Part shown: piece after piece, positions 7,370-10,300 of the stretch
Layout: each line of letters starts with the position of its first letter
How positions within the stretch are numbered: position 1 is the first letter of the stretch
Source of the DNA: the human T2T-CHM13v2.0 reference genome, Homo sapiens
Reading direction: 5' to 3' (one strand)
DNA length: 64,000 nucleotides
Assembly: GCF_009914755.1 (NCBI RefSeq)
Contig: NC_060925.1
Made by a program: the position numbers and the translations under genes
The notes under the pieces: generated by a model
Seen by the model: the letters and a program-made list of their open reading frames with translations, nothing else
What the model was told of the DNA's origin: nothing
The model's database searches: none

Positions 7370-10300
7370 TCATTGGAGCCGGTCACTGCGGAATGACTCC
7401 TCCACAGCAGGATCAGGCAGCAGGGCACAGGGGTCACTCAGCATGTTTAGCCCTTCCAGGCCCAGTGGCTCCATGCGCAGCTCATCTTCTAGCCCAAGCC
7501 CTAGCTCCAATCCAGCTGCTGACACCTCAAAGCCAGGCACTCCGGCCAGGGCTGCTGCAATCTCCTTAGAGAAACCTGGAGAGGAGTCCCCTGTGGGTAG
7601 AAGAGACAGGTGAGGACCCCATGTCCTGTAAACTTTTCCAAGACCCCTCAATCTCCTACTCATTAGTGAATGTGTCACTTCCTCCTTCCATTTCCCATCA
7701 CCACCCACCCCCATTCACCTGTGAGGATGATGTTAGGCCCTGAGCCATGGCGGGAACAGTGGGTCAAGTTCTGGTGGTTGAAGGTGTGGGGATCCTGGGG
7801 GCCACCCATTGGCCCCTCACCCCCTAAAAATCCAGGCCCTTCAGAAAAGCCAGGGGGATCCAGCACCAGGCTGGCTGATGGGCTCTCCATGCTGAACTGC
7901 TCCAGCTATAGACATACAGACAAATCTTTAGGAAGTAGGATTTAGAACTGGTGTCCTGCCTAGCCCTGCTAACATATCCCCTTTGCCCAGCAACCTTCAT
8001 CCACCCCAGGAACAGAGGCAATGACAGAGGGAGGTGGCAGCAAGCAGAGCGACAGAAGCGAGCACGGGGCCCGAAGTAAGTATGGGCACCGTACCTGCTG
8101 GGCCAGAGCATGTGCATGCCAGGAAGAGAACGGGTCAAGGCAGAAGTCATCAAAGAGCAAGCTGAGCAGAAATAGAGGGGCAGGAGTAGGGTCAAACGCA
8201 GGAAGAGAGGAGCCCCAAGCTGGCAGTGCTATGTTACCTCCGGGGAGAGGAGATCTCCCCACCACCCACCCCACCTAGATCTCCCCATTCACAGTGCACC
8301 AGCCATGCCATTCAGGCCCCATTGACCCACCCTCACCCACTCCCCTGCTTTTGAGCAAGGAGCCTGAGTACTCACATTCCCCAGGTTGAAGTCACTCATT
8401 GGCCGGTGGTAAGACTGTTGCCCATGCCCACTGGGCCCAGGTGGGTACGGTGTCCCATAATGAGACTGCCTGCCTGGGGGCTGCCCACCTGAGGACTGCA
8501 CTGAACAAGACTGAGAGGGCAGCCCTGGCTGCTGTAGAGACTTTGGGGTGTGGGGCTGGGTAGGCAGAACCAGACTTGGGGAGCTGTATGGGTATGGGGG
8601 TAACCGCTGGTCAGTGGACAGTTTACTGGTATCCAGGGGGACGCCCTGAAAAGAAGTAAAAAGAGGGAAGCTTACTGCTCAGTGTATACCCCAAGAACTC
8701 TCAGTCAGAGCTTCCCACCTTCTTTAGCTACAACCATTCCCAAAACAAACATGACAACATTCCACATTCTCACGGGCATCCCTGGGGTTGAGTGCAGTTA
8801 CTCAACCCCAGGGATGTGTATTAGTTGGCAGGGTGTGGTGGCTCATGCCTGTAATCCCAGCACTTTGGGAGGCCCAAGGCAGGTGGATCACCTGAGGTCA
8901 GGAGTTCGAGACCAGCCTGGCCAACATGGTGAAACCCCGTCTCTACTAAAAATATAAAAATTAGCTGGGCATGGTAGCAGGCGTCTGTAGTCCCAGCTAT
9001 TCGGGTGGCTGAGACAGGAGAATTGCTTGAACCCAGGAAGTGGGAGGTTGCAGTGAGCCAAGATCACACCACTGCACTTCAGCCTGGGCAACAGAGCGAG
9101 ACTCCGTCTCCAAAAAAAAAAAAGTGCCTATCAGAATGAAAGTGATATAGTGAGGCTAACACAGGGGTAATTTTAAATCTACTCCAGAAGTAAACTATTC
9201 TCTTTTTTTGAGACAGGGCCTCACTCTGTTGCCCAGGCTGGAGTACAGTGGTGCAATCATAGTTGGAACTGTAGCATCAACCTTCCTGGTTCAAGTGATC
9301 CTCCCATCTCAGCCTCCCCAGTAGCCAGGACTACAAGCGTGCGCGACTGCACCTGGGTAATTTTTTATTTGTTGTAGAGACTGGGTCTCACCATATTGAC
9401 CAGGCTAGTTTTGAACTCCCGCCTTGGCCTCCCAAAGTGCTGGGATTACAGGCATAAGCCACTGTGCCTAGCCTTAGAAGTAAACCATTCTTAAATCTTG
9501 ATACTTGAACTATTTATTGTTAGTAAATAAGGAACTAAGGTTGAGAACTGCTGTTCTACAGCCTTGAAGAGGCCAGAGGGGGTGGGAAAAGAAAGAAAGA
9601 AAAGGAGAAAGAAAGGAAGGGAAGTCAAGCTCACTCCACACTCTGGGAACAGAGCCCTTGCTAATCTGGCCTCAGTCTTTCCTACAAAAGAGGGGACCTG
9701 AGTAAAGATGGAACACAGAACACACATTCCAGGGATAGCAATGGAGGAGGAAAAGTTGGGCAGAGGAGAGGGAAAAGAGCATTTGGATGAAAGAAAAGAG
9801 GAGTAGAGATAGAGAACAAGAAGAAAAGGACAGGAAGGGAGACAAGGGCTAAGAATTTCATCTCTGTGGAAAAAGCCCTAAACTAAGAGCTTCGAGTTCT
9901 AGTCTCAACTCTTCCTAACTTGCTGGGTAAACTTGGAAAAGTCACTTTCCCTCTAGGTCCCACTTTCCTCATCTATTAAGTGAAGGAATTGGGCTCCACA
10001 GTAGGAAATTGACTGATTCTACGAATTCTATGAAATTAGGAGGGGATACAGGGGAGGAGACGGGACAAGATAGAGGCATGAGATAAAAGACAGATATAAA
10101 ACAGACAGGAACAGAGGAGGCAAATAAAAGGAAAGGGTAAGCTACTATTTGTCAAGCATACCTGGGCTATGTGTGGTGCTAAGTATTTTATGTATGTTAC
10201 TTCATTTGATCCTTATGAACCATCCTTGTTTTAGAAATGAAAATACTGAGGCTTATAGAAATTAAATAACTTGTCCAAGGTGACTGCTAGTAAGAGGTGG

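What the first reader, a model, noticed from the sequence alone, without database searches (positions are those of the whole stretch)
8095..8181. Hidden ancestral CRTC exon in CRTC2 intron 12, now predicted to act as a poison exon
The intronic minus-strand segment 8181-8095 translates to [29 protein letters not shown] (29 codons). It ends at a good phase-0 donor CAG|GTACGG, directly ahead of exon 13 (LEQFSME). From memory, CRTC1 has [29 protein letters not shown] immediately before LEQFNM: same length, ungapped, with L, S, D, A-x-A-L and the final Q shared (R->W fits a CGG->TGG CpG transition). Canonical CRTC2 lacks this segment. There is no AG at the in-frame acceptor position. The nearest acceptor (cccctctatttctgctcag|, exon start 8161) gives a 67-nt exon. 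After phase-0 exon 12 it reads CTT GCT CTT TGA, a PTC well upstream of the last junction, so NMD is predicted. Inference: a coding exon was converted into an unproductive-splicing switch controlling CRTC2 dosage. Any transcript escaping NMD would give a TAD-less protein.
Basis: partly seen in the sequence, partly recalled or inferred. Interest (0 to 1): 0.85.

Follow-up and report, generated by a model that had tools for sequence, protein, structure and literature searches.

The report
CRTC2 poison exon from ancestral exon
A short alternative exon inside the human CRTC2 gene, which introduces an early stop signal, is the remnant of an ancient protein-coding exon that other vertebrates and some mammals still translate; the stop-introducing exon itself was already annotated and reported in mouse.

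Summary
Window 8181-8095 (-) translates as stated. Exon 12 ends in phase 0, no AG precedes 8181 or 8175, and the 67-nt exon 8161-8095 reads L-A-L-stop.

The ancestral-exon reading is right. CRTC1 has an 87-nt phase-0 exon just before its LEQF exon. CRTC2 models of sharks, sturgeons, coelacanth, lungfish and amphibians carry a 25-29-aa segment at this junction, in 29 of 35 listed models. None of 71 sauropsid models has it. Marsupial, bat, mole, seal and bear models encode a 26-27-aa in-frame version. Eight of these mammalian peptides all hit window 8175-8095 as best match, E 4e-9 to 8e-12. The relic is therefore 81 nt, not 87.

Human has CT where the in-frame acceptor AG would be. It uses the next AG, 14 nt downstream, so the old F-D-D codons are read as TGATGA.

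The exon is not hidden or new. RefSeq lists 8095-8161, and a 2024 preprint shows mouse Crtc2 'exon 13N' is neuron-enriched and rises with cycloheximide. I found no paper describing the evolutionary origin (eight full-text searches). Human NMD sensitivity and dosage control were not tested here.

Novelty: already known. Interest: 0.3.

The parts
8095..8161 (-). 67-nt alternative cassette exon of CRTC2. Entered from phase-0 exon 12, it shifts the frame and stops after 3 codons.
   Evidence: The hub annotation lists 8095-8161 as an exon of other RefSeq transcripts. Translation is L-A-L-stop.
8095..8175 (-). 81-nt relic of the ancestral in-frame CRTC2 exon (27 codons, [27 protein letters not shown]). 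The frame is open in human but has no in-frame acceptor.
   Evidence: tblastn of 8 mammalian coding versions gives this as the best hit for all 8, E 4e-9 to 8e-12, 18-20 of 27 identical.
8176..8177 (-). CT at the position where an AG acceptor would give the 81-nt in-frame exon.
   Evidence: Sequence read. That other mammals have AG here is inferred from their 27-codon models; their DNA was not seen.
8162..8163 (-). The AG acceptor actually used. It is the first AG downstream of a 58-nt AG-free zone.
   Evidence: no AG between 8221 and 8163.
8147..8152 (-). Tandem stop TGATGA, produced by reading the old F-D-D codons (TTT GAT GAC, 8154-8146) one base out of frame.
   Evidence: first stop at 8152-8150, followed by TGA.
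8089..8097 (-). Donor CAG|GTACGG. It is phase 0 in the ancestral frame.
   Evidence: It matches the annotated exon end at 8095.
8191..8195 (-). Branch-point-like TTGAC. Its A at 8192 is 30 nt upstream of the acceptor G.
   Evidence: Motif scan. This is a consensus match only.
8164..8210 (-). Pyrimidine-rich tract upstream of the acceptor, including CTCTCTT at 8209-8203. This is a PTBP-type motif (recalled knowledge).
   Evidence: Binding was not tested.
8115..8119 (-). GCATG (an RBFOX-type motif; recalled knowledge) inside the exon. It is formed by the W-H-A codons.
   Evidence: W-H-A is kept in 8 of the 11 mammalian in-frame models listed; Sarcophilus has W-H-T, and Halichoerus and Pteropus have W-R-A. 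Binding was not tested.
8376..8645 (-). CRTC2 exon 12, the upstream constitutive exon. It ends in phase 0 with ...DFNLGN.
   Evidence: and the hub annotation.
7719..7905 (-). CRTC2 exon 13, the downstream exon. It starts LEQFSME.
   Evidence: and the hub annotation.
7373..7588 (-). Coding part of exon 14, the TORC_C transactivation domain. The truncated product would lack it.
   Evidence: Pfam PF12886, 92.3 bits.

Best explanation
Window 8175-8095 (-) is the human remnant of an ancient in-frame exon of the CRTC family. This exon is the ortholog of a 25-29-codon exon still translated in CRTC2 of cartilaginous and bony fishes and amphibians. It is also the paralog of the 87-nt CRTC1 exon that precedes LEQF.

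In mammals it became a 27-codon (81-nt) alternative exon. Gene models of marsupials, bats, moles, seals and bears still include it in frame.

Human has no AG at the in-frame acceptor (CT at 8177-8176). The spliceosome can only use the next AG, at 8163-8162, 14 nt further in. That gives the annotated 67-nt exon and shifts the frame by one base. The conserved F-D-D codons are then read as a tandem stop, TGATGA, 242 nt upstream of the last exon junction.

Inclusion should therefore make the mRNA a substrate of nonsense-mediated decay and lower CRTC2 output. Skipping gives the canonical 693-aa protein.

What is shown: sequence anatomy, frame, stop position, homology, orthology and taxonomic distribution.
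What comes from a paper: the presumed mouse ortholog is neuron-enriched and rises when translation and NMD are blocked.
What is inferred: NMD in human cells, a real effect on CRTC2 dosage, regulation by PTBP- or RBFOX-type factors, and that the acceptor shift is what turned a coding exon into a poison exon.
For: Anatomy:
- Searches give the frames, the absence of any AG between 8221 and 8163, the stop at 8152-8147, and the 242 nt to the last junction.
- The hub annotation lists exon 8095-8161.

Paralog:
- The CRTC1 87-nt phase-0 exon is at L008:7697-7783.
- 5 of 7 non-mammalian CRTC2 segments hit it as best match, E 2.2e-7 to 8.1e-4.

Orthologs:
- One search listed 120 of 500 hits, and one search aligned them.
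- With a 10-bit profile cut-off, the segment is present in sharks 7 of 7, sturgeon/paddlefish 3 of 4, coelacanth 1 of 2, lungfish 1 of 1, caecilians 3 of 3, salamanders 2 of 3, frogs 12 of 15, marsupials 3 of 7 and placentals 5 of 6. It is present in turtles 0 of 25, crocodile 0 of 2, squamates 0 of 16 and birds 0 of 28.
- For the non-mammals this tally is partly circular, because 26 of them built the profile.

Human relic against mammalian coding versions:
- All 8 peptides have 8175/8163/8160-8095 as best hit in the 64-kb window, E 4e-9 to 8e-12. Next-best hits have E >= 0.056.

Bridge to the deep past:
- The non-mammal profile finds the marsupial exon at E 3.5e-8, bats at 1e-3 to 4e-3, and moles at 0.04-0.09.

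Orthology:
- A quick IQ-TREE puts sharks through human in one CRTC2 clade (SH-aLRT 99) in species order, with the CRTC3-like and CRTC1 clades outside.

Constraint:
- The relic is about as conserved as the flanking coding exons. Human against Monodelphis: 59/82, 19/27, 45/62. Against Myotis: 74/90, 20/27, 51/62. Against Apodemus: 73/88, 20/23, 53/62, for exon 12, relic and exon 13.

Function:
- bioRxiv 10.1101/2024.09.09.612108 (passages read) reports mouse Crtc2 exon 13N. It is neuron-enriched, increases during cortical development, has a stop in front of TORC-C, and its inclusion goes up after cycloheximide.
Against: - No human RNA data were available here. Human inclusion rests on the RefSeq annotation alone. 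NMD sensitivity in human cells is predicted from the 50-55-nt rule (established knowledge).
- That mouse 'exon 13N' is the ortholog of 8095-8161 is inferred. The grounds are its name, the stated stop position before TORC-C, and the fact that the only other downstream intron is 128 nt long in human.
- A profile of 26 non-mammalian segments does not find the human relic significantly. It scored 4.7 bits, E 5.2, rank 7 of the listed fragments among 2674 fragments.
- Only 2 of 7 single non-mammalian segments have the relic as best hit, at E 0.033 and 0.44. Deep homology therefore rests on the chain through mammalian coding versions plus identical position.
- The in-frame mammalian versions are computational gene models. 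I saw no DNA of other species, so an AG at their acceptor is inferred.
- In seal, bear and flying fox the N-terminal half of the peptide is degenerate. In-frame inclusion there may itself be unimportant.
- The regulatory motifs are bare consensus matches.
- The careful tree search did not finish.
Confidence: 0.78

Rival explanations
1. The exon is a decaying leftover. It is spliced in at low level as noise, and the resulting transcripts are cleared by NMD with no regulatory consequence for CRTC2.
For: - The in-frame acceptor is gone in human.
- The N-terminal half of the peptide is degenerate in carnivores and flying fox.
- Sauropsid models lack the segment altogether, 0 of 71, so the family can do without it.
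- The chr5 retrocopy derives from the skipping isoform.
Against: - The relic is about as conserved as the neighbouring coding exons between human and opossum, bat and a murid. That is not expected of neutral intron over such distances (established knowledge of mammalian neutral divergence).
- The presumed mouse ortholog is cell-type and stage regulated.
Confidence: 0.14
2. The main product of inclusion is a stable truncated protein of 561 residues that lacks the TORC_C activation domain. It would act as a competitor of full-length CRTCs, and mRNA decay would not be the main outcome.
For: - The stop removes exons 13-14, and TORC_C lies in exon 14.
- The N-terminal CREB-binding and regulatory regions would be retained (Pfam layout of the orthologs).
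Against: - The stop lies 242 nt before the last junction, which is the textbook NMD configuration.
- Inclusion of the presumed mouse exon rises with cycloheximide, as expected of a degraded isoform.
- No protein evidence was seen.
Confidence: 0.05
3. The human exon is still used in frame through an unannotated acceptor, so it remains a coding alternative exon in human as well.
For: - The ancestral frame is open through 8181-8095, and further upstream to 8274.
- AGs at 8282 and 8276 would give in-frame exons of 186 and 180 nt.
Against: - There is no AG between 8221 and 8163.
- The in-frame AGs at 8282 and 8276 sit in purine-rich sequence without a pyrimidine tract.
- RefSeq lists only 8095-8161.
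- No primate model with the segment appeared among the 45 of 62 hits I inspected (and earlier calls).
Confidence: 0.03

Closest known systems
Mouse Crtc2 'exon 13N' (bioRxiv 10.1101/2024.09.09.612108; passages read)
   Same: [quoted passage not shown]
- Predicted NMD, with inclusion raised by cycloheximide.
- By position it is very probably the ortholog of window 8095-8161.
   Different: - It was described in mouse neurons only.
- The passages I read say nothing about an origin from a coding exon, about CRTC1, or about in-frame versions in other species.
- Its sequence and size were not visible to me, so orthology is inferred.
CRTC1 87-nt exon before LEQFNM (G000 C19:18910496-18910582)
   Same: - Same place in the gene, directly upstream of the LEQF exon.
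- Phase 0 on both sides, and the same C-terminal A-x-A-L-x-x-Q|LEQF pattern.
- Homologous to the non-mammalian CRTC2 exon at E down to 2.2e-7.
   Different: - It is a normal coding exon with a good acceptor (ctgcag|).
- Direct similarity to the human CRTC2 relic is only 7 of 29.
In-frame 26-27-codon CRTC2 exon in marsupial, bat, mole, seal and bear gene models (for example P0299, P0302, P0350, P0332, P0378, P0382)
   Same: - The same exon, with 18-20 of 27 residues identical to the human frame for the marsupial, bat and mole models (seal 16 of 27, bear 15 of 26).
- Same donor-side sequence FSSWHAHAL(S/A)QQ|LEQF.
   Different: - They are translated in frame, 14 nt longer at the 5' end than the human exon.
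- Human lacks that acceptor.
Conserved poison cassette exons of splicing-factor genes, such as those of SR protein genes and the Ptbp1 exon 9N of the same preprint (general knowledge)
   Same: A regulated cassette exon that brings in a stop and couples splicing to NMD. It is conserved about as well as coding sequence.
   Different: Here the stop does not lie in sequence that was always non-coding. It arises because a formerly translated exon is entered one base out of frame after an acceptor shift. CRTC2 is also a transcription coactivator, not a splicing factor regulating itself.

Membership tests
NMD-coupled poison cassette exon | Alternative cassette exon with usable splice sites that is seen in transcripts | tested here: met
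   Acceptor tttctgctcag| follows a 58-nt AG-free pyrimidine-rich zone, and the donor is CAG|GTACGG. The hub annotation lists exon 8095-8161 in other RefSeq transcripts. I did not see RNA reads.
NMD-coupled poison cassette exon | Inclusion creates a stop codon more than 50-55 nt upstream of the last exon-exon junction | tested here: met
   The stop is at 8152-8150, with a second TGA next to it, 242 nt before the exon 13/14 junction.
NMD-coupled poison cassette exon | The inclusion isoform is stabilised when NMD or translation is blocked | not testable with these tools
   Reported for the presumed mouse ortholog after cycloheximide (preprint passages). No human data were found in the searches.
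NMD-coupled poison cassette exon | Conservation above neutral intron | tested here: met
   At peptide level, human against opossum is 19/27, bat 20/27 and murid 20/23. This is similar to flanking exons 12 and 13. Nucleotide-level conservation was not testable because I had no DNA of other species.
Ancestral CRTC exon preceding LEQF (ortholog of the fish and amphibian CRTC2 exon, paralog of the CRTC1 87-nt exon) | Same position, between the exon-12 homolog (...DFNLGN) and the LEQF exon | tested here: met
   Alignments. The relic lies in intron 12 and abuts a donor in phase 0.
Ancestral CRTC exon preceding LEQF (ortholog of the fish and amphibian CRTC2 exon, paralog of the CRTC1 87-nt exon) | Significant sequence similarity to coding versions in orthologs | tested here: met
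   8 of 8 mammalian coding versions hit the relic at E 4e-9 to 8e-12. The marsupial version matches the non-mammalian profile at E 3.5e-8.
Ancestral CRTC exon preceding LEQF (ortholog of the fish and amphibian CRTC2 exon, paralog of the CRTC1 87-nt exon) | Direct significant similarity of the human relic to non-mammalian CRTC2 or to CRTC1 | tested here: inconclusive
   The profile of 26 non-mammalian segments gives 4.7 bits, E 5.2. Single segments give a best hit in 2 of 7, E 0.033 and 0.44. Against CRTC1 the relic has 7/29 identities, a score reached by 32 of 127,828 windows.
Ancestral CRTC exon preceding LEQF (ortholog of the fish and amphibian CRTC2 exon, paralog of the CRTC1 87-nt exon) | The carriers are true CRTC2 orthologs | tested here: met
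   Quick maximum-likelihood tree of 29 rows shows a CRTC2 clade with SH-aLRT 99 from sharks to human, with CRTC3-like and CRTC1 outside (the careful search did not finish).
Functional in-frame coding exon in human | An AG acceptor that keeps the frame | tested here: not met
   CT at 8177-8176, and no AG between 8221 and 8163.

The most novel reading that the evidence does not exclude
An ancient alternative coding exon of CRTC2, more than 400 million years old by its presence in sharks, was converted into an NMD switch in the lineage leading to human and mouse. The conversion came from loss of its acceptor AG and a 14-nt shift to the next AG. The deeply conserved F-D-D codons then supply a ready-made tandem stop. 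Marsupials and laurasiatherians still translate the exon, and sauropsids deleted it. The same piece of DNA would thus serve isoform diversity in some mammals and neuron-specific dosage control of a metabolic CREB coactivator in others.
Probability: 0.45. Interest if true: 0.45.

Novelty: already known. Interest (0 to 1): 0.3.

Why it matters
CRTC2 is a main CREB coactivator in glucose and lipid metabolism (established knowledge). A splice switch that sends its mRNA to decay is a handle for changing CRTC2 levels with splice-blocking oligonucleotides. It would also help explain why neurons rely on CRTC1.

The exon itself is annotated, and its poison behaviour is published for mouse, so the finding adds no new element. 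What this work adds is its history. The stop-bearing exon is the frame-shifted remnant of a coding exon shared with CRTC1 that many vertebrates and several mammalian orders still translate. That is a clean, testable example of how a coding exon can become a regulatory one. It also warns annotators that the 'extra' 27 residues in bat, mole, carnivore and marsupial CRTC2 models are real homologous sequence and not model errors.

Tried and rejected
- Direct tblastn of the 29-aa candidate against 40 kb of the CRTC1 and CRTC3 loci gave only chance-level hits, E >= 0.7.
- Comparing CRTC1 and CRTC3 loci through translated ORF fragments was swamped by Alu repeats. After filtering it recovered only one shared exon.
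- Neither the CRTC1 LEQF exon nor the CRTC1 87-nt exon found a counterpart within 20 kb upstream of the human CRTC3 last exon. Only a weak candidate appeared later, at C3 16754-16798, E 0.027. CRTC3 is left unresolved.
I used a 43-aa genomic reference spanning the CRTC1 exon instead. All 120 rows listed were CRTC1-named, generically named or unnamed models, and every named species was a mammal, so that search did not answer the CRTC2 question.
- A profile of non-mammalian segments against the six-frame window did not find the relic significantly.
They may hold the mouse exon's coordinates.
- Earlier findings of this scan were not open.
- Rfam found no family at E <= 1 on either strand of 7600-8700. 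A structured RNA is therefore not the reason for conservation, as far as described families go.
The aligned position is R in CRTC1, sturgeon, one caecilian and one shark, Q in other non-mammals, and W in all listed mammalian models.
- Eight literature searches found no paper on the exon's origin and no human NMD data for CRTC2. The library lacks most subscription journals.
- The careful tree search did not finish in 288 s, so only the quick tree is reported.
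Full report
**What is in the sequence**

On the minus strand, window 8181-8095 translates to [29 protein letters not shown] and ends at CAG|GTACGG. The 14 coding exons of the annotated CRTC2 transcript give a 693-aa protein. 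The running length is 1674 nt after exon 12, so exon 12 ends in phase 0. Exon 13 begins LEQFSME.

Joined to exon 12, this 67-nt exon reads CTT GCT CTT TGA and would give a 561-aa product. The stop is in fact a tandem TGATGA at 8152-8147. It lies 55 nt from the exon's end and 242 nt from the last exon junction.

Intron 12 has no AG between 8221 and 8163. With a branch-point-like TTGAC at 8195-8191, the AG at 8163-8162 is the first one available. TORC_C (PF12886) lies in exon 14, scoring 92.3 bits. The relic, exon 12 and exon 13 match no Pfam model.

**The CRTC1 comparison**

The window's genome is held. The last exons of CRTC3 and CRTC1 were found on contigs C15 and C19, and the upstream DNA was fetched. 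CRTC1 has an 87-nt exon, ctgcag|...CAG|gtgagc, at C19:18910496-18910582. It encodes [29 protein letters not shown] and lies 654 nt before its LEQFNM exon.

Ungapped, the CRTC2 candidate shares 7 of 29 residues with it, for a BLOSUM62 score of 14. This is the best of 384 windows in intron 12, where the next best scores -1. The score is reached by 2 of 7200 windows in all CRTC2 introns and by 32 of 127,828 windows in the whole 64 kb on both strands. The last 30 nt match at 23 positions. That is suggestive only.

A plain tblastn of the candidate against the CRTC1 and CRTC3 loci had found nothing better than E 0.7.

**Orthologs settle it**

A search of 50%-identity representatives with a full-length CRTC1 returned 1047 proteins at E <= 0.001, of which 150 were listed. 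It turned up CRTC2-like proteins with a 28-29-aa segment between the end of the exon-12 homolog and LEQF.

A named search with the C-terminal part of one of them, the Pleurodeles waltl CRTC2 model P0139, listed 120 of 500 hits. After alignment and scoring against a segment profile with a 10-bit cut-off, the segment was present as follows:

| Group | Models with the segment |
|---|---|
| Sharks | 7 of 7 |
| Sturgeon/paddlefish | 3 of 4 |
| Coelacanth | 1 of 2 |
| Lungfish | 1 of 1 |
| Caecilians | 3 of 3 |
| Salamanders | 2 of 3 |
| Frogs | 12 of 15 |
| Turtles | 0 of 25 |
| Crocodile | 0 of 2 |
| Squamates | 0 of 16 |
| Birds | 0 of 28 |
| Marsupials | 3 of 7 |
| Placentals | 5 of 6 |
| Unnamed | 0 of 1 |

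The sixth placental, Apodemus, scored 6.7 bits but visibly has a 23-residue version. For the non-mammals the tally is partly circular, because 26 of them built the profile.

A quick maximum-likelihood tree of 29 rows puts sharks through human in one CRTC2 clade (SH-aLRT 99) in species order. A CRTC3-like pair is sister to it, and CRTC1 lies outside. The careful search did not finish.

**The mammalian versions**

Models of Monodelphis and Sarcophilus encode ...GN|LSLLNSLFDDSCFDQFSSWH(A/T)HSLSQQ|LEQFSM. Models of three bats and two moles encode close variants.

These peptides plus the Apodemus one, eight in all, each have window 8175/8163/8160-8095 as best hit in the 64 kb. E values run from 4e-9 to 8e-12, with 18-20 of 27 identities (20 of 23 for Apodemus). 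The next-best hits are at E >= 0.056.

The mammalian exon is thus 27 codons, or 81 nt. In human it would start at 8175, where the preceding dinucleotide is CT.

A further named search with the Myotis model returned 62 hits. I inspected 45 of them: 37 and 8 seen earlier. It added in-frame versions in grey seal, black bear and a flying fox, with a degenerate N-terminal half. Of the 37 inspected:
- 21 join ...GN directly to LEQF;
- 4 also skip exon 12;
- 1 dog model has a different 7-residue insert;
- 8 lacked my search motif and were not resolved.

The other 17 hits were not inspected. No primate model with the segment was seen.

**Links to the deep past, and a negative result**

The non-mammalian segments hit the human CRTC1 exon as best match in 5 of 7 cases, E 2.2e-7 to 8.1e-4.

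Against the human relic the result is weak. Only 2 of 7 single segments have it as best hit: P0139 with 13 of 26 identities, one gap, E 0.033, and P0138 at E 0.44. A profile of 26 non-mammalian segments scores it only 4.7 bits, E 5.2, seventh among the listed fragments of 2674.

The same profile finds the marsupial exon at E 3.5e-8, bats at 1e-3 to 4e-3, moles at 0.04-0.09, seal at 0.5 and bear at 5.5. Deep homology of the human relic therefore rests on two things. One is a chain: human relic to mammalian coding exon, marsupial exon to non-mammalian exon, and non-mammalian exon to CRTC1 exon. The other is that the position in the gene is identical at every step.

**Conservation**

| Human against | Exon 12 | Relic | Exon 13 |
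|---|---|---|---|
| Monodelphis | 59/82 | 19/27 | 45/62 |
| Myotis | 74/90 | 20/27 | 51/62 |
| Apodemus | 73/88 | 20/23 | 53/62 |

The relic has changed about as slowly as its coding neighbours, which neutral intron would not do over these distances (established knowledge). The most constant part in all mammals is the 3' portion, FSSW(H/R)A(H/Q)A(L/V)(S/A)(Q/R)Q. In human it holds a GCATG at 8119-8115.

No Rfam family matches either strand of 7600-8700 at E <= 1.

**How it most likely works**

Shown:
- Human can enter this exon only through the AG at 8163-8162, 14 nt inside the old exon.
- That shifts the frame by one base, so the old F-D-D codons (TTT GAT GAC, 8154-8146) are read as ..T TGA TGA.

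From established rules: a stop 242 nt before the last junction marks the mRNA for nonsense-mediated decay.

From a paper (bioRxiv 10.1101/2024.09.09.612108, passages read): mouse Crtc2 'exon 13N' is enriched in neurons and rises during cortical development. It puts a stop in front of TORC-C, and its inclusion increases after cycloheximide in primary neurons.

I take that exon to be the ortholog for three reasons:
- The paper's own naming places an 'N' exon before the exon of that number. Its Ptbp1 exon 9N lies within a minigene spanning exons 6-9.
- The stop lies before TORC-C.
- The only other downstream intron is 128 nt long in human.

I could not see the mouse exon's sequence.

Inferred:
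- Inclusion lowers CRTC2 output in human neurons.
- The CTCTCTT tract at 8209-8203 and the GCATG mediate PTBP- or RBFOX-type control. These are consensus matches only.
- Loss of the upstream AG is what converted a coding alternative exon into a poison exon.

**Comparison with what is known**

The exon is annotated, and its poison behaviour is in print for mouse, so the element is already known. Eight full-text searches found no paper that derives it from a coding exon, links it to the CRTC1 exon, or notes in-frame versions in other mammals. They found no human NMD data for CRTC2 either.

**Verdict**

- The exon is not hidden.
- The relic is 81 nt, not 87.
- A one-codon gap is needed against the non-mammalian exon.
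- The W residue is old.

The new content is the exon's history. Interest is modest.

Noticed in passing
L002/L004 (G000 C5:63154211-63154576, + strand): A processed CRTC2 retrocopy. The exon 12 and exon 13 sequences are joined directly (L002 1441-1500 and 1501-1690, 84-88% nt identity), and one TAA lies inside the exon-13 match. It derives from the isoform that skips the relic.
   Followed up: partly
L009/L011 joined, position 16754-16798 (G000 C15:88394753-88394797, + strand): A weak candidate for the homologous segment in human CRTC3, SSLTNFFPDVGFDQQ. It matches a shark CRTC2-like segment at 9 of 15, E 0.027. No LEQF-type exon was found within 20 kb upstream of the CRTC3 last exon, so CRTC3 seems to have kept only part of this region.
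   Followed up: partly
proteins P0154, P0218, P0187 (representative search, no names): Proteins that fall outside the vertebrate CRTC1/2/3 clade in the quick tree also end a segment with ...(T/N)(S/N/V)(A/V)LQHQ directly before LEQF(K/S)M. The junction motif may therefore predate the vertebrate paralogs.
   Followed up: no
proteins P0416, P0417, P0434, P0435 (bat and horse CRTC2 models); window exon 12 = 8376-8645: Several mammalian models skip exon 12 altogether (...SSITQ|LEQFSM). Exon 12 is 270 nt and in phase 0/0, so this is an in-frame deletion of 90 residues.
   Followed up: no
protein P0407 (Canis lupus CRTC2 X3): The dog model has a different 7-residue insert (GLSVCPQ) directly before LEQFSM. 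It looks like an alternative acceptor 21 nt upstream of exon 13 and is unrelated to the relic.
   Followed up: no
L007 (G000 C2:52568703-52568828, + strand): A weak match to the C-terminal half of the CRTC2 TORC_C exon, 57% over residues 35-71, E 0.007. Its nature is unknown; it may be a fragmentary retrocopy.
   Followed up: no
frog CRTC2 models (for example P0326, P0342, P0368, P0371): Frogs carry a shortened version of the segment, about 25 residues with a two-residue deletion after FDD/FDE. Three frog models (Xenopus laevis X2, Spea, Pelodytes isoform 2) and one salamander model (Ambystoma X2) lack it. The exon may therefore already be alternative in amphibians.
   Followed up: partly
window 8274-8280 (-): The ancestral frame stays open upstream to 8274. 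AGs at 8282 and 8276 would give in-frame exons of 186 and 180 nt, but they sit in purine-rich sequence without a pyrimidine tract and are not annotated.
   Followed up: partly
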